42,931 nt of DNA from a virus (taxonomy: Duplodnaviria > Heunggongvirae > Uroviricota > Caudoviricetes). Positions 2,794-30,514 of this stretch are shown here, one piece after another (the first letter of the stretch is position 1; every line of letters starts with the position of its first letter). The DNA lies in the IMG/VR virus record IMGVR_UViG_2541047844_000013, positions 1 through 42,931 of that record, one strand, 5' to 3'. A model generated the notes under the pieces. The model was not told the DNA's origin. It searched no databases and was given only the letters and a program-made list of their open reading frames with translations. Made by a program: the position numbers and the translations under genes.

Positions 2794-4847
2794 GAAACTT
2801 CCCCATTGGTTGAAAATATGGCTCCTCCAACTCCAAGTGTATTTCGTGTTGTGCTCAACCTAAGAGGGCTGGAGTCAGAATTAGAATATCCTGTAGCAGA
2901 AATAAAAGATCCTCCACTAATAGTCAACTGCGGAACATCGGCTATATCTGAATAAGTTCTGTCAGCAACAGTATTATTTATAGCCACATGTGATCCAAAA
3001 AAACTTCTTATTGTTTGGTTTTTAACTTTACTTCCTTCAATGGTTATCCTACTACCACAGTCAGCAATAAATCCTGAATCTGCATCCAGCGTTGCATTCA
3101 TAAAAGAAGCTTCAGATCTCTCTACATCAATCCATCTAATATCTTTTGTGGGATTTGCACCAAATACATGACAAATATTAGAGTTAAACCTTACACCATC
3201 TTGGAGGTGCATTAATTTTTTTATATCTGTACCCCATAGCCTTGGAAAATTAACAGATGCTCCTGCATGGCAATCAAATCCCAACTCAGCCCCTGAGATA
3301 TCTACAGCCTTTCCTGAAATAACAGCACCAGTGTCTGCATTAACGGCTGTTCCACAATTGCGCATATCATTACCAGCAATATCAACACAACTCGCACCAT
3401 CAATACGCACACCAAGTGCACATCCATAAAAACCTTTTTCAATATTTGGTTCAAGGACTTTACCACTTGTTTCTGCATCACTTTCTTCAACGTCATGTCG
3501 TCTTGCATCAACATATGCTGTATGAATGCAGGTTAATCCACGATATGAGCAATGTATAGTTTTATGGTCGCGTATATTAACATTTGAACCATCTCTTACA
3601 TTCCATCCTATATAACAATAGCTTGCACTTGACCCCTGAAAATCTGCTTTAACATTATAAATACAATTAACTGACGCAACCGTACTCTCTGTGCACCGTT
3701 CAAACTTGCTTACAGGCATTGATGCCTTGACATTATTTACCAGTTGCAGGGAAGAGTATCTGCTATAAGAAAAATCACATACGTAATACCCTTCTGGCAT
3801 ATATGCAGCAACACTTTCCTCATCAGGAGCACATCCGGTATGATATGCACTAATTTTTGCACCAAAGCTACCATGAATTCCAACGTAGAACTTTCGAGCA
3901 CCTGAATACGGATAGAAATTAAGTTCAGCTTTTTGAGTTACAATAAATGCACAAACATCGCTATCATCTCTATTTTCTTCAATCTGAATAGCAAATACAG
4001 GACTTTTTGCTGCATCGCAAATGTAAAATAAATATTTGTATTCGTAATACGTCCTAACAGTTTTAGTAAACAAACTGGTATCAGAGAAAACCACTGAGTC
4101 TTCTGATATTATTTTAATCCATGATAAGTCACATCCTGCTGAAATTTCTATTTGCTCATTGAGCACAAAACCGGAAAGAATTTTAATTATGCAAAAGTCA
4201 ATGCCATTTTTCCATAGTGGACGCAGTGCAACAGCCGAGTTTAGAGCATCACTAATAGATTTAAAATTACCATATTCCCCAACTGTTATTGTGAATGCAT
4301 ACCTGGAATTAAATACTGCGGCACTCTCTCCAGAGTTAATAGCTGCAGATATCATGTCATAATTTGATATAAAATCATTTGGCGTGATTATTTCTGCGTT
4401 TTTATTGTGCTGTGTTCTAAGTTTTGAATTTACATGAACACTTTTAACTGCAATACGGGAGTCGTCAACAAGTATTTCATTACCCTCTGTTGCTAACTCT
4501 TGTCTTAACTGATCCGGGTCATACTTCAGCACATTCGGAAAATTGAACTGCTGTGCACCATACGCATCATAAACAGCCATAGAATGGCCTTGCTCAGTTA
4601 CGAATTTGGCAATCTGTCCGTTATATACAGGATAACCAGCAGCGTTAATGATGATTGGTTGCGAAACAGGAACGTGAGAGCCGTCTTCGTTCTCTACATA
4701 AACCTGAATCTGGTTTTCAGGATTTACCGGGTCAGTGTCAATTTTACCGATATAAATTTTGCCATTGGCTACGGCTTTAAAAGAACGCGCCATAGTGAAG
4801 AGTTGCGAAGGCATACTCACTACAACATTGGCTGTAATGTCTGTCAT
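2790..4847 (-). CDS. Tailspike protein: P22 gp9-like N-terminal head-binding domain fused to a different receptor-binding/depolymerase domain
   Basis: First ~110 aa ([43 protein letters not shown]...VLKYDPDQ) match P22 gp9 N-terminus from memory; the remaining ~570 aa do not resemble P22 gp9. Confidence 0.88.
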
Positions 4848-25917: not shown

Positions 25918-26441
25918 GCAGCCCTCCTGACACCCTGCCCGATCGCCATCAATGCCGCTTTGGATACGGTAGTAAACATCCGTCGAGGACTGATGAACGG
26001 TCGCCAAATCAGCAGCATGGAACCTTTGCTGTTTCCCTTCTTCTCCAGCACCGTCGATGGTTCGATAAAATTAATCCGTCCATCAGTGATGATGCGAACT
26101 TCGTCAACACTCTCCAGAGCCTTGCTGAACCATCCGACAGACATATCCTCTGGCACAAGCATCACTACCGTCTGTCGCTGTTGTATGCACTGCTCAGCGG
26201 CTTTTTCCACCCACGGCCTGATATTGCTGTACGGTGGGTTATTCCAGATTGCACCGTGACTTACCCACTCAGAATTGAGCGCGTCGTCGGCCTCAGTTAG
26301 CCAATGAGCGCACAGAGTGTTTTTGTCGCTCGCTGCCGAATCCAGCCAGAATCCAAACTCAATATCCAGTGCATCAAAAAGCCAAAGCGGCGTTTGCCAG
26401 CAGTCCTTGTCGTGTGCTGGCGTATTTGATTTGATAGTCAT
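25914..26441 (-). CDS. Orphan DNA N6-adenine methyltransferase (phage Dam family)
   Basis: NPPY catalytic motif (IWNNPPYSN); about 175 aa; no adjacent restriction endonuclease gene; start set at the Met immediately after the ninB stop. Confidence 0.75.
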   Translation of the reverse strand: MTIKSNTPAHDKDCWQTPLWLFDALDIEFGFWLDSAASDKNTLCAHWLTEADDALNSEWVSHGAIWNNPPYSNIRPWVEKAAEQCIQQRQTVVMLVPEDMSVGWFSKALESVDEVRIITDGRINFIEPSTVLEKKGNSKGSMLLIWRPFISPRRMFTTVSKAALMAIGQGVRRAA

Positions 26442-26884
26442 GCAGCCTTCCCTTTTCGTTGTGACCATTCATACTCTCGCCGGGAGTCATCACTCCACCG
26501 CACGTTGCGCTCTGAGCCGAACCAGAACATGATTTCGATAAGCTCAGTCATGCTGGCCTTTCGCATTTTGCTGGTACGCACGCCAAGCATAACAACGCCA
26601 CCGTCGATACCAGGCGCACTTCGTTGCTCCAGTTTTTTGGTCTTAAGCCACAGGGCAGTGAACAGATCTTTCCAGTCCTCCGGCGCAAGTCTCTCTCCAT
26701 GCCAGAGCACCTGACGCGATACGTCCTGCAATAACGCCCACATAAGGCGGTTTTGAGGATTGCTCCGCTTTGGTTCTTTAATGTGGACTTCGTGAGGTGA
26801 CTTGTCGTCGATCGGAAGTGAGAGTATTGCGTCTATGGCGTTGTTTCTGATTGCTTCGTTGCGAAGCATGTATATTTGCTTCAT
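26438..26884 (-). CDS. ninB: NinB (Orf) recombination mediator
   Basis: Similarity to lambda NinB in the central region (...QNR.LWA.L.DVSRQV.WHG...VKWSD...EW); start at MKQIYM with GAGGT Shine-Dalgarno. Confidence 0.75.
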   Translation of the reverse strand: MKQIYMLRNEAIRNNAIDAILSLPIDDKSPHEVHIKEPKRSNPQNRLMWALLQDVSRQVLWHGERLAPEDWKDLFTALWLKTKKLEQRSAPGIDGGVVMLGVRTSKMRKASMTELIEIMFWFGSERNVRWSDDSRREYEWSQRKGKAA

Positions 26885-26891
26885 CGTTACC

Positions 26892-27098
26892 TCAACTAAC
26901 AAAACGCCACGCCATTTTTGCTACAGCGACAGGCATAACACCGATAATCACCCAGACAAATGCAGCGCCAAACAACGTATACCATGGGTCTTTACCGTCA
27001 TTCACAAGACGAATGTAGCTATGCAGAACAATAAATAACGTCAGAAGAATCCATCCAACGCCAACGCATTTGAATGCGACGAGCATAAACTCAGCCAC
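26892..27098 (-). CDS. Small two-TM membrane protein, unknown function
   Basis: 68-aa ORF with two hydrophobic helices; between the primase-helicase and ninB (the lambda ren position). Confidence 0.4.
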   Translation of the reverse strand: MAEFMLVAFKCVGVGWILLTLFIVLHSYIRLVNDGKDPWYTLFGAAFVWVIIGVMPVAVAKMAWRFVS

Positions 27099-27174
27099 GA
27101 TTTACTCTCCCCCAAATAAAAAGGCCTGCGATTACCAGCAGGCCTGTTACAAGCTCAGTGATGTAGATGGTTAT

Positions 27175-29067
27175 TTAATACTCCGTCACGTTTTCCTGTC
27201 GCCACGCCTCGTCATATTCCGATTTCGGCATATTGGCGATGTAGCTATATGGCGATCCTGATTCAAGTTGCAGGAACTGGTGCGATTGCTCGTCAAGGAA
27301 CAACGGGACGCCACCTTCCCAACCTTCGCCGTTACGTTGTTTTTCAAGCATCAAAACAGATGCCGGAGACGCCAGTACCTGTTCGTCCTTCTCTGACATC
27401 TTTTCACCACTCTGAACTCTCTGTAACGCTCTCTCGCGAGCCTTGTTACGCCAGATGATGAAAAGGTTGTCTGTCAGGTCTGTTATCGCTCCAGAGCCTT
27501 TTACGTCCATTTTCCCGGTTGGTTTTTCTTCGCTGTCTCCTTTTCGCGAGTGAGTAACGAGAATGACGTGGGAGTTTGTTTTGTTTTTGAAGTCGCAAAT
27601 CGAGTCAACAAACGCCTTCTGCCCGTTATAGTCATCGTCGCCTATGCCACATTTCATCAGGCTGTCGATGATGAATAACTGGATCCCGTATCGGCGGCGA
27701 GCGTAGTCGAATATTTCGATCAGCCTGTCGGCTTTCGCCGTTCCGGTCAGGCCAAACACCCAAAGTCTTTCGTCATAAAATTTAAATGCAGAGTCAATTT
27801 CCAGCACTGGCGGCATCTTGCAGCACGTCGCCTGACGGGTAAGGCGCTTAAGGAGAATACCAGGCTTCAGCTCAAGTGACGCGATGCACGTCTTCACACC
27901 CTGACGCATTGCCTCAAGTGCCATATGCCCGACAACCTCCGTTTTTCCGTGACCGTTCACACCATTGACCAGCGTCAACTCGGCCTCACGGAACTGGAAT
28001 TTATCTGCCAGAGATTCCCACGGTGGATTAAACAGATACTGCTGCTTGCCGTAGAAAGCGTTGATAGTGTCCTGGTAAAACTCTCGCGCGCTGTAGAGTT
28101 CTTCAGGATCGAAGTAGGATGCCGTGCCGATGTACTGCCAGATTTCATCCTCGGTAACACCGTTCATCAGGCATTCGTTGATGTCTTTGTACGGCAGAGT
28201 AACAAGACGGCAACGATGTTCACCGAGTCGGCTTGCGATTTCCCTTGCGGCCTCACGACCAACATCATCAACGTCCATCGAGATGAATATTTCCTCAAAC
28301 CTGTCGAGGTTGTGATACTCAAACTCAATCCACTGTTGCTTAGCACCTTTCCCGCCACCAAACGGCACGGATAACGCCGAGATGCCGTATTGCGCATAGC
28401 TCATACAATCAATTTCGCCTTCGCAAAGTACAACCGCCCTCACGCCAGCGTCCAGAGCCTGCCATCCGAACAGACAAGGTTCGCAATCACCTTCTGCCAT
28501 AATGACTTTCTTCCCGTCCGGGCGCTCAGTGCTGATTCGCTTGACCTGCAACAACTCACCATCGCGTTTGTACGGAAGCACCAGTGCATCAAGTTCTCGT
28601 TCTCCATTCCACACCTTGCCGCTGACAACCTCGTAGCGCTTTACGACTTCTGGCGATATGCCACGCGATTGCAGGTACTCAAGATGGGATTCTGTTCTGG
28701 TAACGTAGCGGGCGATTTTCTTGCGGTCAGGTCTGGAGAATTTCTTCTCACGTCTGGCATCGAAATGGTGATCGTCATCCTTGATACCGAGAAATGCTTT
28801 CGCTTCCTGCATAGCCTGATGCAGGTTAATTCCACGACATGCCATCCACAAATCAAGCATGTCACCGCCGTCTCCCTCAGCGAAATCAGCCCATTTTTTC
28901 TTGCCGCTAAGGTTGACCTTAAGGCTGTTTCCCTTGTCACCGTTGACGTTACCGGCAACCCACTCATGCCCCTCTTTCTTGCCGTTTGGCAACAGGTGCG
29001 GAGCCACCCTGTCAACCTGCGCCCAAAGCAGGTCGCTAAGTTCTGATGGACTCAAAGGTGCCTCCAT
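27175..29067 (-). CDS. Bifunctional DNA primase/helicase (TOPRIM plus DnaB-like helicase)
   Basis: 630 aa; Walker A GVNGHGKT in the C-terminal half; acidic TOPRIM-like segment in the middle; replaces the lambda P / P22 gene 12 function. Confidence 0.75.
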   Translation of the reverse strand: MEAPLSPSELSDLLWAQVDRVAPHLLPNGKKEGHEWVAGNVNGDKGNSLKVNLSGKKKWADFAEGDGGDMLDLWMACRGINLHQAMQEAKAFLGIKDDDHHFDARREKKFSRPDRKKIARYVTRTESHLEYLQSRGISPEVVKRYEVVSGKVWNGERELDALVLPYKRDGELLQVKRISTERPDGKKVIMAEGDCEPCLFGWQALDAGVRAVVLCEGEIDCMSYAQYGISALSVPFGGGKGAKQQWIEFEYHNLDRFEEIFISMDVDDVGREAAREIASRLGEHRCRLVTLPYKDINECLMNGVTEDEIWQYIGTASYFDPEELYSAREFYQDTINAFYGKQQYLFNPPWESLADKFQFREAELTLVNGVNGHGKTEVVGHMALEAMRQGVKTCIASLELKPGILLKRLTRQATCCKMPPVLEIDSAFKFYDERLWVFGLTGTAKADRLIEIFDYARRRYGIQLFIIDSLMKCGIGDDDYNGQKAFVDSICDFKNKTNSHVILVTHSRKGDSEEKPTGKMDVKGSGAITDLTDNLFIIWRNKARERALQRVQSGEKMSEKDEQVLASPASVLMLEKQRNGEGWEGGVPLFLDEQSHQFLQLESGSPYSYIANMPKSEYDEAWRQENVTEY

Positions 29068-29546
29068 GCGTTTCCTCTGCGGATTGTGGAAATTTGCATT
29101 TCACTCACTCCGTATTTAGTGGATAGTTCGCTTAGTTTCATACCAACAGAATTCCTGATATCAATCACATCAGTTTCAGATAGTTTTGCCCTACCATTAA
29201 AAACTCCCTTTGCGCTTTTCAGTCCGATGCTAAAAGCATGTTTTAAATTCTCTGAGCAGGTACACCATTCCAAGTTCCAAATGGCGTTATCCGATTTGTC
29301 GCCGTTGATATGATTTACTTCTGGCTTGCAATACGGATTTGGGATAAATAATTGAGCTACAAGACGATGAACTTTTAACGTCTTCTGAATCCCATCGGAA
29401 CACAAAGTGACTCTTAGATAACCCTTGTTATCCGGAGATGGATTCAAAAACCTGCCTCTTAAATGTGAATAAACACGACCGTCTTTGGTTACAGAGTATT
29501 TACCCTCATAACCAGGTATATATTCTCCAACTTCAAGGCTCATCAT
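29052..29546 (-). CDS. HNH homing-type endonuclease (NUMOD4 plus HNH_3)
   Basis: 164 aa; N-terminal GYEGKYSVTKDGRVYS (NUMOD4-like); HNH core HRLVAQLF...NHINGDKSDNAIWNLEW; stop overlaps the primase-helicase start. Confidence 0.75.
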   Translation of the reverse strand: MMSLEVGEYIPGYEGKYSVTKDGRVYSHLRGRFLNPSPDNKGYLRVTLCSDGIQKTLKVHRLVAQLFIPNPYCKPEVNHINGDKSDNAIWNLEWCTCSENLKHAFSIGLKSAKGVFNGRAKLSETDVIDIRNSVGMKLSELSTKYGVSEMQISTIRRGNAWRHL

Positions 29547-29653
29547 GATTCCCTCAGATTGAGATTTTTAAACCAGAAATCGACAAACGAAATACTTAAC
29601 CAGCCGTGGTTATAACCAGCGACTAGTAGCGATTTGATTTTTGATTTCATGGT

Positions 29654-30514
29654 TCACCTGTCGAAAAACACGTAGCCAGTTTTCGATACGGTGATTGCGG
29701 ATGATGGTTTGGATTGTGGTTGAATGGTTTCTGGCTTTTCGTCGTTCCAGCGTTGACCGTTCAGGTAGCTCGATGGTAACAACCTGTCGAATCCGAACTG
29801 CTTACCATTCCTGCATGCGATGTCTTCTGCCAACATCGTGGCAAACTCGCTTGCCGTACCCCTGGTAGTTTTACGCCATTCCCTGAACTGTGTTCTAAAT
29901 GCCGAAGCTGCGTTTTTTTTCCCGGCTTTCCGCATGCCTGCACACCAGAATATTTCCTCGAATGCCTTGTCGGTTTCTTCGTGACGGTCAGGTGATTTTT
30001 CACACTCCGTCCGAACACTTTCGGACATAGTGTTTTTATTATTTCTTTTTTCTTTTGTAATAGTTTCTTTTGTGTGTCCCTGTTTTGGTGACAGCGCTGT
30101 CACCGTTTTGGTGACACTTTTTGTCACCAATGCAGTGACATTATCACCAGAGTAGTGACACCCTTCGATTTGCCATTCCTCGATGTTCTTGTTAGGCCCG
30201 ATTTGCTGGCCTTCGCGAAGGATAACCTTCATCGCGATAAGCTCATTCTTGGCCTTGTTTACCTTCTGTCTTGGCAGCCTGGTAATTTGAGCTAACTGAC
30301 TATCAGAGATGCGATCCATCTTTTTACCGTAGCCGTATGTTTTACGGCATATGGCGTGGGCAACCTTGCTCTGATTTTTCGTTAAATCTGCGCCGATAAG
30401 CTCTTCATACAGGGCATTTGCAAGACGGGTATAACCATCTTCAACTTCTGCCACACGACGCTCCACAGGCCGTTGTGAAGGCCTTAAATGTGTTACGGTT
30501 GCAAGATTACTCAT
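29654..30514 (-). CDS. Replication initiator, lambda O-like N-terminal origin-binding domain
   Basis: N-terminus ([56 protein letters not shown]...GPNKNIEEW) parallels lambda O; iterons lie inside the gene. Confidence 0.8.
30083..30170. repeat. Replication origin iterons (GGTGACA / TGTCACC repeats) inside the O-like gene, next to an AT-rich tract at 30031-30070
   Basis: Repeats such as TGGTGACAGCGCTGTCACC, TTGGTGACACTTTTTGTCACCAA, CAGTGACATTATCACCAGAGTAGTGACACC; arrangement as in lambda ori. Confidence 0.7.

What the first reader, a model, noticed from the sequence alone, without database searches (positions are those of the whole stretch)
29052..29546. Free-standing HNH/NUMOD4 endonuclease wedged between the O-like initiator and the primase-helicase
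The gene has the hallmarks of a homing endonuclease (NUMOD4-like N-terminus, HNH core) and its stop overlaps the primase-helicase start. Such genes are mobile within phage populations and often target the allele lacking the insert, so this is likely a selfish insertion in the replication module that could also affect recombination with co-infecting relatives.
Basis: partly seen in the sequence, partly recalled or inferred. Interest (0 to 1): 0.45.

Follow-up and report, generated by a model that had tools for sequence, protein, structure and literature searches.

The report
Mobile HNH homing endonuclease before primase
A small selfish nuclease gene sits exactly at the start of the primase-helicase gene of an E. 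coli lambda-like prophage, and population data show the identical cassette has recently spread into many different relatives that normally lack it: a clear but ordinary kind of mobile element.

Summary
ORF 29052..29546 (minus strand, 164 aa) carries NUMOD4 and HNH_3 domains. Its confident AlphaFold model matches the homing endonuclease I-HmuI over its full length. Its stop overlaps the primase-helicase start.

About 98% of E. coli genomes with this replication module lack the gene (290 of 295), and so do all 44 matching phage records. E. coli PK13 is 100% identical to the window over about 4 kb except for this insert.

- **Insertion anatomy:** 499 nt replace 8 nt at the primase start codon. 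The gene takes over the primase ribosome-binding site and ATG. It supplies a new Shine-Dalgarno sequence (GGAGG) and an overlapping TTGA start for primase. It also recodes primase codons 1-4.
- **Site specificity:** every copy found lies at this site. Orthologs of 62-81% identity in Cronobacter, Enterobacter and Pantoea prophages occupy it too.
- **Spread:** the cassette is nearly invariant (π 0.0005, against 0.012 in primase). It is scattered almost randomly over primase haplotypes, with no linkage to SNPs 5-8 nt away.

This indicates recent repeated transfer, most likely by homing. Cleavage itself is untested. It is a new member of a known kind, the free-standing HNH homing endonuclease genes such as T4 mobE.

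The parts
29052..29546 (-). Free-standing HNH homing endonuclease gene (164 aa)
   Evidence: ORF; Pfam NUMOD4 and HNH_3, PHROG 59; PDB 1U3E I-HmuI by sequence, E=7e-14; AF2 model with pLDDT 95, best Foldseek PDB match 1U3E at E=3.7e-9 over 165 columns.
29403..29522 (-). NUMOD4 N-terminal beta-sheet DNA-binding region (aa 9-48)
   Evidence: Pfam PF07463; strands E17-19, E25-27, E44-50 and E53-58 in the model.
29244..29375 (-). HNH (beta-beta-alpha-metal) catalytic core (aa 58-101; H79, N91, N100, H103)
   Evidence: Pfam PF13392. H79, N91 and N100 align with I-HmuI positions 75, 87 and 96 (offset read from the alignment; the roles of those I-HmuI residues are from my own knowledge). N78, H79, N91, N100 and H103 are invariant in 49 homologs. 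The model shows strands 76-79 and 92-95 and helix 97-106.
29079..29177 (-). C-terminal three-helix (HTH-like) DNA-binding domain (aa 124-156)
   Evidence: Helices 124-131, 138-145 and 149-156 in the model. Partial Foldseek matches to HTH proteins such as SinR, ArdK and sigma region 4. I-HmuI has the same architecture.
29044..29542 (-). The inserted block relative to the empty site: 499 nt replacing the 8 nt CGCCAAGT of HNH-less alleles (net +491 bp)
   Evidence: Alignment A1 of the window and 19AR1321 (HNH+) against PK13 and mEp043 (HNH-). PK13 is otherwise 100% identical to the window from about 26500 to 30500.
29543..29546 (-). Left junction ATGA. In empty alleles this is the primase start codon overlapping the stop of the 35-aa ORF. 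Here it is the HNH start.
29044..29055 (-). Recoded primase codons 1-4, carried with the insert: TTG AGT CCA TCA in place of ATG ACG CCA AGT (6 of 12 nt differ; MTPS becomes (M)SPS)
   Evidence: Present in every HNH+ allele, including the Enterobacter ortholog; Cronobacter has GTG AGC CCA TCA. Absent from all HNH- alleles. Inferred to destroy the enzyme's target and so give self-immunity.
29061..29065 (-). GGAGG Shine-Dalgarno sequence for primase, lying inside the HNH codons for W-R, 5 nt upstream of the TTG start
   Evidence: Read directly from the sequence. Conserved in the Cronobacter and Enterobacter orthologs.
29543..29650 (-). Conserved 35-aa ORF (ES18 gp60 equivalent), translationally coupled (ATGA) to whatever follows it
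   Evidence: Sequence. Annotated as gene 60 in ES18. Called as a 35-aa gene in L013 and L014. No Pfam match.
27175..29055 (-). Primase-helicase (T7 gp4-like), 626 aa from TTG 29055 or 630 aa from ATG 29067. This gene carries the presumed homing site at its 5' end.
   Evidence: Pfam and PHROG matches. ES18 gp61 is annotated 'similar to phage T7 gene 4'. Every HNH copy found lies immediately upstream of this gene.
29654..30514 (-). Lambda O-like replication initiator (context only, not part of the element)
   Evidence: Pfam Phage_rep_O, E=1.2e-37. In other HNH+ prophages it is replaced by an HTH_36-type initiator.

Best explanation
This is a free-standing homing endonuclease gene (HEG) of the I-HmuI-like NUMOD4-HNH-HTH type. 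It is inserted precisely at the start codon of the primase-helicase gene of a lambdoid (P22/ES18-like) E. coli prophage.

Shown:
- It is an optional 499-nt block at one fixed site.
- It uses the ribosome-binding site and ATG that serve primase in empty alleles.
- It restores primase expression signals through a GGAGG inside its own last codons and an overlapping TTGA stop/start.
- It always travels with a 12-nt recoded version of primase codons 1-4.
- The cassette is nearly identical in all E. coli copies, although the flanking primase sequences differ by about 1.2%. Carriers are scattered almost at random over the primase tree.

Inferred:
- The gene is expressed early from the pR operon after induction or infection.
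- The protein recognises the uninterrupted junction (...GAGGGAATC ATG ACG CCA AGT GAA CTT...) in a co-resident HNH-less relative.
- It nicks or cuts within a few nucleotides of the insertion point.
- Recombinational repair from the HNH+ genome copies the cassette and the recoded patch into the broken allele.
- The carrier's own site is split and recoded, so it is immune.
- Co-conversion beyond the patch appears to be very short. This is as expected if 3' tails are preserved during Red/Erf-type repair, but that step is speculative.
For: - **Protein family:** Pfam NUMOD4 and HNH_3 above their cutoffs, PHROG 59. Sequence match to I-HmuI 1U3E at E=7e-14. AF2 model at pLDDT 95 with a full-length Foldseek match to 1U3E. 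Catalytic H79, N91 and N100 are invariant.
- **Presence/absence:** 5 of 295 E. coli genomes with the module carry it, and 0 of 44 phage records. IMG/VR gives 77 empty against 7 filled junctions.
- **Isogenic empty site:** PK13 equals the window over about 4 kb apart from the insert. Two further pairs, L005/L080 and L003/L068, differ at 0-1 of 1860 primase positions.
- **Exact junction anatomy:**
- **Site specificity:** all 5 complete-genome copies, all 10 sampled places of 363 index blocks, and all 6 IMG/VR copies lie at the same site. The upstream initiator and the immunity region vary.
- **Deep persistence at the site:** orthologs of 81%, 75%, 73% and 62% identity in other genera sit in the same gap. 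A 49% relative lies elsewhere.
- **Recent spread:** 2 segregating sites in the 491 nt compared, against 26 expected from primase density (P=1.6e-9). π is 0.0005 against 0.012.
- **Uncoupling from the flanks:** 14 state changes on the primase NJ tree for 18 carriers, against 16.3 for shuffled labels. SNPs 5 and 8 nt past the patch have equal allele frequencies in carriers and non-carriers, with r2 about 0.
- **Foreign composition:** GC 0.38-0.40 against 0.50.
- **Not an intron or an independent unit:** no intron or RNA family, and no promoter or terminator of its own.
- **Precedent:** T4 mobE is a promoterless free-standing HNH gene whose product nicks the 5' end of the downstream gene, and is protected by polymorphisms in its own genome (PMC2790892; PMC2988022).
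Against: - No cleavage or nicking has been demonstrated for this protein or any close relative. The target site is inferred only from the insertion anatomy.
- Position 78 is Asn where I-HmuI has the metal ligand Asp74. The Asn is invariant in the subfamily, so it is probably functional, but this is untested.
- Characterised T4 HEGs give co-conversion tracts of tens to thousands of bp (PMC2790892; PMC2988022). Here there is no detectable linkage even 5 nt from the patch. That is unusual, and could mean that ordinary recombination in these highly mosaic phages contributes.
- The carrier frequency is low (about 2-8%) for an element with drive.
- One copy (elppa4, L004) has a 4-nt insertion that removes the normal start, so not all copies are intact.
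Confidence: 0.8

Rival explanations
1. The cassette is passive. The HNH gene is an inactive or irrelevant passenger (a 'moron'), shuffled among lambdoid prophages by ordinary homologous recombination in the conserved flanks, with no endonuclease-driven gene conversion.
For: Lambdoid genomes are highly mosaic. The window and PK13 share only a module of about 4 kb and diverge outside it. The immunity and nin regions of carriers differ. There is no LD at any distance. Carrier frequency is low.
Against: - Ordinary crossovers would very rarely fall within 5 nt of the insert on one side and within about 35 nt on the other. Yet carriers show about 14 independent backgrounds and mirror the non-carrier haplotype frequencies.
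- The ORF is intact in 21 of 22 copies, and the catalytic residues are invariant across homologs down to about 40% identity.
- A site-specific lineage is maintained at the same junction over 62-100% protein identity in at least four genera.
- The recoded patch is what a self-immune HEG would need.
Confidence: 0.1
2. The nuclease is domesticated or beneficial. It is kept mainly because it serves the phage. It might act as a weapon that damages the replication gene of competing HNH-less relatives (marker or superinfection exclusion), or as an accessory factor for replication or recombination. On this view it is not purely selfish DNA.
For: HEGs in T-even phages cause marker exclusion of related phages (PMC2988022). 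The target would be an essential gene of close competitors. The gene is tightly embedded by translational coupling in the early replication operon. PADLOC lists matching 'HEase' models.
Against: About 98% of otherwise identical modules do without it, including an isogenic one. No partner gene co-varies with it. PADLOC gives only a generic homing-endonuclease match, not a defence system. A competitive effect would be a by-product of the same cleavage activity, not a distinct mechanism.
Confidence: 0.08
3. It is a packaging-associated HNH, like HK97 gp74 and other cos-phage HNH proteins that assist terminase.
For: HNH genes are common in phage genomes next to terminase genes (PMC3592412 abstract).
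Against: The gene lies in the replication module. It is not adjacent to any packaging gene; the nearest large ORFs that could belong to the late/packaging region (about 18063..19897; their function was not tested) are roughly 9 kb away. Its family is different: NUMOD4 plus HNH_3 plus HTH, I-HmuI-like, with no zinc ribbon. It is absent from 98% of relatives that use the same module.
Confidence: 0.01

Closest known systems
Phage T4 mobE (free-standing HNH homing endonuclease between nrdA and nrdB)
   Same: - Free-standing HNH gene inserted between two conserved genes of an essential operon.
- No promoter of its own, so dependent on upstream transcription.
- The target lies (here: is presumed to lie) in the 5' end of the downstream gene.
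- The carrier genome is protected by nucleotide polymorphisms at the site.
- The gene shows presence/absence polymorphism among relatives (PMC2790892, PMC2988022; here).
   Different: - The phage is temperate and lambdoid rather than a virulent T-even phage.
- The insertion is exactly at the start codon of the downstream gene, and the start is rebuilt as an overlapping TTGA.
- The protein has the NUMOD4/I-HmuI-like architecture.
- Co-conversion appears far shorter (5 nt or less past the patch) than the 100-2000 bp reported in T4.
- Activity has not been shown.
I-HmuI (PDB 1U3E; intron-encoded nicking HNH endonuclease of Bacillus phage SPO1 DNA polymerase gene)
   Same: Closest solved structure by sequence (E=7e-14, aa 10-151) and by fold (E=3.7e-9, 165 columns). 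The domain order is the same: N-terminal beta-sheet domain, HNH core, C-terminal helical DNA-binding domain. The size is similar (164 against 174 aa). I-HmuI nicks 3 nt from the insertion site (PMC3428280), which is the model for a cut close to the junction here.
   Different: Only 28% identity. This gene is not inside a group I intron (no Rfam match). N78 stands in place of the D74 metal ligand. I-HmuI also cuts intron-containing DNA (PMC3428280), whereas here the carrier site is split and recoded.
Other free-standing HNH_3 genes in lambdoid nin regions and the phage HEG neighbourhoods surveyed by Barth et al. 2023 (PMC10448857)
   Same: These HEGs lie next to or within essential replication genes, and several HEGs can occur in one phage. 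Related prophages here carry further HNH_3 genes at several other positions in the early-right operon.
   Different: Those are different HNH lineages: the AP2-associated IPA-HNH type and others. The nearest phage-database proteins are under 50% identical and sit in other contexts, for example next to lysis genes in Salmonella phage 29485.

Membership tests
HNH (beta-beta-alpha-metal) nuclease superfamily, Pfam HNH_3 | Profile match above the curated threshold | tested here: met
   PF13392 at 37.2 bits against a cutoff of 24.8.
HNH (beta-beta-alpha-metal) nuclease superfamily, Pfam HNH_3 | General-base His, structural Asn and metal-ligand Asn/His are present and conserved | tested here: met
   H79, N91 and N100 align to I-HmuI positions 75, 87 and 96 (residue roles from my own knowledge). 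N78, H79, N91, N100 and H103 are invariant in 49 homologs. N78 replaces the Asp74 ligand of I-HmuI.
HNH (beta-beta-alpha-metal) nuclease superfamily, Pfam HNH_3 | Beta-hairpin plus helix fold around the active site | tested here: met
   The model has strands 76-79 and 92-95 and helix 97-106, at pLDDT about 98. Foldseek hits are I-HmuI and then I-PpoI.
I-HmuI-like homing endonucleases | Extended NUMOD4 beta domain, then HNH, then C-terminal helical/HTH DNA-binding domain | tested here: met
   Pfam NUMOD4. Full-length structural alignment to 1U3E, TM 0.60, 165 columns.
I-HmuI-like homing endonucleases | Encoded within a self-splicing group I intron | tested here: not met
   The gene lies between ORFs. 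There is no Rfam family in 28500-30200 at E<=1. It is therefore free-standing.
I-HmuI-like homing endonucleases | Site-specific strand nicking near the insertion site | not testable with these tools
   Needs a biochemical or in vivo assay.
Free-standing homing endonuclease genes (T4 seg/mob type) | Optional gene at a fixed position between conserved genes, with HEG-less alleles in close relatives | tested here: met
   5 of 295 E. coli genomes and 0 of 44 phage records carry it. PK13 is an isogenic empty site.
Free-standing homing endonuclease genes (T4 seg/mob type) | Insertion leaves the flanking essential genes intact and expressed | tested here: met
   The primase ORF is intact, with a new SD (GGAGG) and a TTGA-coupled start. 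The 35-aa ORF is intact. Expression itself is inferred.
Free-standing homing endonuclease genes (T4 seg/mob type) | Sequence differences at the target in the carrier genome (self-immunity) | tested here: inconclusive
   The site is split, and 6 of 12 nt in primase codons 1-4 are recoded in all carriers. That this is the recognition site has not been shown.
Free-standing homing endonuclease genes (T4 seg/mob type) | Endonuclease-dependent, super-Mendelian transfer into HEG-less alleles | tested here: inconclusive
   Population signature only. The cassette is near-invariant (π 0.0005) in about 14 independent primase backgrounds (π 0.012). Dependence on the nuclease is not testable here.
Terminase-associated HNH (HK97 gp74-like) | Adjacent to terminase/cos and required for packaging | tested here: not met
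   It is located in the replication module and is absent from 98% of relatives.

The most novel reading that the evidence does not exclude
This may be an actively sweeping homing element in natural E. coli prophage populations that behaves as an almost perfectly precise cassette. On this reading, each transfer copies only the 499-nt block, and conversion ends within about 5 nt on the primase side. That is much shorter than any co-conversion tract described for phage HEGs. It would imply a cut inside the 8 replaced nucleotides and a repair route that preserves the recipient's 3' ends, such as nick-initiated or Red/Erf-type synthesis-dependent annealing. The odd junction in strain elppa4 (ATGA-CGCC-TGAGCC) would then be a fossil of an untrimmed 3' flap. 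It would place the top-strand break between ATGACGCC and AAGT.
Probability: 0.3. Interest if true: 0.55.

Novelty: new member of a known kind. Interest (0 to 1): 0.4.

Why it matters
Homing endonuclease biology in phages rests almost entirely on virulent phages such as T4, SPO1 and ICP1. This locus is a clean natural example in temperate lambdoid prophages of E. coli. It offers an isogenic empty site (PK13, and the cultivable phage mEp043) and a defined junction. It also shows a population signature of recent multiple transfers.

The locus could serve as a tractable system for three questions:
- how HEGs spread between prophages;
- how they contribute to the mosaic boundaries of lambdoid genomes;
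- how an insertion at a start codon is made harmless by rebuilding translational coupling.

The enzyme would also be a small candidate site-specific nickase or nuclease with a defined candidate recognition region in an essential phage gene. None of this changes the current understanding of HEGs.

Tried and rejected
- **Group I intron or other structured RNA around the gene:** no Rfam match at E<=1 in 28500-30200. Rejected.
- **Own promoter or terminator, as in some T4 HEGs:** only one weak promoter-like match, below shuffle expectation, and no terminator. The gene depends on the operon.
- **Defence-system component:** PADLOC returns only generic 'HEase' models. NCBIfam has no model for it.
- **Terminase-associated HNH:** wrong location and architecture.
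- **Ectopic copies:** an internal 35-mer finds only the same six IMG/VR loci that carry the canonical junction. A distant blastn against E. coli genomes finds only the 5 syntenic copies.
- **Co-conversion gradient (lower diversity or LD near the insert):** none was found. Diversity resumes 6 nt after the patch and about 34 nt upstream, and r2 is about 0 at all distances.
- **Literature on this element or on HEGs in lambdoid phages:** no paper found describing it. The epsilon34 paper mentions an unrelated HNH fusion in the early-left operon.
Full report
**Observation.** The window holds an ATG-initiated ORF of 164 aa at exactly 29052..29546 on the minus strand. It matches Pfam NUMOD4 (aa 9-48, E=1.6e-10) and HNH_3 (aa 58-101, E=2.3e-9), both above the curated cutoffs. 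It also matches PHROG 59 'HNH endonuclease' at E=1e-56.

Upstream on the same strand lies a lambda O-like initiator at 29654..30514 (Phage_rep_O, E=1.2e-37). Downstream lies a Toprim plus DnaB-like primase-helicase at 27175..29067 (PHROG 239, E=2e-171). This gene is the homolog of ES18 gp61, which is annotated as 'similar to phage T7 gene 4'.

The HNH stop overlaps the primase start. The overlap is 4 nt (TTGA) if the TTG at 29055 is used, as PGAP does in related genomes. It is 16 nt if the ATG at 29067 is used. GC drops to 0.38-0.40 over the gene, from about 0.50 in both flanks.

One detail was missed. A conserved 35-aa ORF (29543..29650, ES18 gene 60) lies between O and the HNH gene, and its TGA overlaps the HNH ATG as ATGA.

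**The protein.**
- By sequence, the only solved relative is the homing endonuclease I-HmuI (1U3E, E=7e-14, aa 10-151).
- An AlphaFold2 model built on 49 homologs is confident (mean pLDDT 95). It shows an N-terminal beta domain, a beta-beta-alpha core and three C-terminal helices.
- Foldseek against the PDB returns 1U3E as the only significant match, over 165 columns (E=3.7e-9). Next come I-PpoI for the core and HTH proteins for the C-terminus.
- In the family alignment H60, N78, H79, N91, L92, W94, N100 and H103 are invariant.
- H79, N91 and N100 correspond to I-HmuI positions 75, 87 and 96, using the offset read. N78 takes the place of Asp74, and this holds throughout the subfamily.
- The catalytic apparatus thus looks intact, but activity is not shown.

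**Presence and absence.** A 1.7-kb query spanning O, HNH and primase finds 295 E. coli complete genomes with the module. Only 5 hold the HNH. The other 290 match in two pieces separated by a 491-bp gap in the query. All 44 matching phage records lack it, including mEp043, Sf101, SEN22, ES18, epsilon34 and Stx2 phages.

The HNH DNA alone hits only those 5 genomes, always at 100% identity and at the same site. The best phage-database protein is under 50% identical. In IMG/VR, the exact empty-junction 27-mer occurs in 77 loci and the filled-junction 30-mer in 7. An internal HNH 35-mer finds only six of those seven and nothing elsewhere.

The exact protein is indexed in 363 blocks of the assembly collection. 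In all 10 places inspected it lies immediately upstream of the 626/630-aa primase. The upstream initiator varies (Phage_rep_O or an HTH_36 protein), and so do the immunity and nin regions. The element is therefore tied to the primase 5' end, not to O.

**Junction anatomy.** E. coli PK13 is 100% identical to the window from about 26500 to 30500 except at this locus. It gives an isogenic empty site.

- Empty allele: ...CTGAGGGAATC ATG ACG CCA AGT GAA CTT AGC GAC..., encoding primase MTPSELSD.
- Filled allele...CTGAGGGAATC ATG ATG AGC CTT... [HNH] ...GCA TGG AGG CAC CTT TGA, with TTG AGT CCA TCA GAA CTT AGC GAC read in the overlapping frame.

Four points follow.
- 499 nt replace the 8 nt CGCCAAGT.
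- The HNH gene inherits the ribosome-binding site, the ATG and the ATGA coupling to the 35-aa ORF that serve primase in empty alleles.
- Its last codons (W-R-H-L) contain GGAGG 5 nt before a TTG that overlaps the stop, which rebuilds a coupled start for primase.
- Primase codons 1-4 are recoded at 6 of 12 positions. Ser4 changes from AGT to TCA, which needs three substitutions.

This patch is present in every carrier and in no non-carrier. It is the kind of change expected to make a carrier immune to its own enzyme, as proposed for T4 mobE (PMC2790892). That it is the recognition site is an inference.

**Depth of the lineage.** Proteins of 81% (Cronobacter sakazakii), 75% (metagenomic), 73% (Enterobacter roggenkampii) and 62% (Pantoea) identity all sit in the same gap between the initiator and the primase-helicase. 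The Cronobacter and Enterobacter loci, whose junctions were read, have the same ATGA and [T/G]TGA architecture; for the 75% relative this is inferred from gene coordinates only (4-nt overlap). In the Pantoea version, primase starts 16 nt after the HNH stop. A 49% relative lies in an unrelated, myovirus-like context. This is a site-specific lineage that has persisted at one homing site across several enterobacterial genera.

**Population evidence for mobility.**
- *Cassette diversity.* Among 22 E. coli-type copies the 495-nt gene is identical in 19. Two have one SNP each, and one (elppa4) has a 4-nt insertion after ATGA.
- *Comparison with the flank.* Among 17 non-redundant carriers the last 491 nt of the HNH gene (the first 4 were left out to avoid the elppa4 indel) have 2 segregating sites (π=0.0005). 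The adjacent 1860 nt of primase have 99 (π=0.012). At the primase density, 26 sites would be expected in the HNH gene (Poisson P=1.6e-9).
- *Nearest neighbours.* Carriers are interspersed with non-carriers. For most carriers the nearest HNH-less primase is as close as, or closer than, the nearest unrelated carrier. Three pairs differ at 0-1 of 1860 positions.
- *Tree distribution.* On a neighbour-joining tree of primase, 18 carriers require 14 state changes. Shuffled labels give a mean of 16.3 and a range of 12-18.
- *Linkage.* The two common SNPs only 5 and 8 nt beyond the patch (window 29038 and 29035) have the same allele frequencies in carriers (13:5 and 14:4) and non-carriers (41:16 and 46:11), with r2 about 0. 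No site along the gene shows appreciable association.

The cassette copies share a far more recent ancestor than their flanks. The pattern therefore reflects many recent transfers of the cassette into pre-existing backgrounds, not an old insertion followed by losses. This is the expected footprint of homing.

The NJ tree ignores recombination within primase, so the count of events is approximate. The absence of any co-conversion signal is unusual compared with T4, where tracts reach 0.1-2 kb (PMC2790892, PMC2988022). I can only suggest an explanation: a cut inside the replaced 8 nt, plus repair that preserves the recipient's 3' tails.

**Regulation.** No RNA family, promoter or terminator is detectable in or around the gene. 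It is probably expressed as part of the early-right (pR) operon, which runs cro, cII, DUF2740, O, the 35-aa ORF, HNH and primase. This resembles the promoterless T4 mobE (PMC2790892).

**Rivals.**
- *Passive passenger moved only by general recombination.* This fits the mosaicism of these phages. It does not fit the extreme closeness of the exchange points to the insert, the conserved catalytic residues, or the long persistence at one site.
- *Beneficial role in competition with HNH-less relatives.* This is possible, but it would be a by-product of the same activity, and an isogenic module does without the gene.
- *Terminase-associated HNH role.* This is excluded by location, architecture and dispensability.

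**Comparison and novelty.** Functionally the closest described system is T4 mobE. Structurally the closest is I-HmuI. The gene meets the sequence, fold and genomic criteria of a free-standing HNH homing endonuclease gene. It fails the 'intron-encoded' criterion of I-HmuI proper, and its enzymatic criteria are untested.

PGAP already names it 'NUMOD4 motif-containing HNH endonuclease'. I found no paper describing it or its homing site. It is a new member of a known kind.

Its interest is moderate. It gives a clean natural case of a recently sweeping HEG in temperate E. coli phages. It has an isogenic empty site in a cultivable phage background and an unusually tight conversion footprint.

Noticed in passing
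window 29543..29650 (-): A conserved 35-aa ORF (MKSKIKSLLVAGYNHGWLSISFVDFWFKNLNLRES) lies between O and the next gene. It is annotated as gene 60 in ES18 and has no Pfam match. Its stop always overlaps the next start codon (ATGA), whether that gene is primase or HNH. It is conserved in Stx phage Min27 and in Cronobacter and Enterobacter prophages. Its function is unknown. It may be a translational-coupling leader for primase.
   Followed up: partly
L004 (E. coli elppa4, NZ_CP083512.1), HNH start region, locus about 4020-4051: This variant left junction reads ATGA-CGCC-TGAGCC. It retains 4 nt of the empty-site sequence (ATGACGCC) and frameshifts the normal HNH start. PGAP calls a shorter 155-aa protein from a non-canonical codon. 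It could be a decaying copy, or a relic of imprecise repair that marks the break position.
   Followed up: partly
L009, L011, L014-L017, L005, L111 (related prophages): Other HNH_3 genes, some with AP2 domains, occupy at least five other positions in the early-right/nin operon of related prophages: between cII and the initiator, just after primase, between NinB and Dam, after NinF, and between YbcO and RusA. The lambdoid early-right operon appears to be a hotspot for free-standing HEGs. None was seen among the nin-region ORFs of this window that I scanned.
   Followed up: no
window about 26250-26500 and about 30500: The window and E. coli PK13 are identical across a replication module of about 4 kb (NinB to O). 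They diverge sharply outside it, so the mosaic boundaries lie near the Dam/NinB junction and at the O/DUF2740 junction.
   Followed up: no
window 29524..29546 (-) compared with the empty-site primase 5' end: The first 23 nt of the HNH gene (ATGATGAGCCTTGAAGTTGGAGA) match the first 23 nt of the uninterrupted primase gene (ATGACGCCAAGTGAACTTAGCGA) at 14 positions (alignment). This may be chance, or a trace of a duplicated primase 5' end from the original insertion. It was not tested statistically.
   Followed up: no
window 26892..27098 (-): A 68-aa hydrophobic ORF (MAEFMLVAFKCVGVGWILLTLFIVLHSYIRLVNDGKDPWYTLFGAAFVWVIIGVMPVAVAKMAWRFVS) lies just downstream of primase, with no Pfam match. The corresponding slot is variable among relatives: 68-aa, 108-aa, DUF7301 or MarR-like genes.
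   Followed up: no
L006/L011 (E. coli TUM1880): An ISVsa5 (IS4-family) transposase is inserted 10 nt downstream of the primase stop in this HNH+ prophage, next to a truncated and a full-length HNH gene.
   Followed up: no
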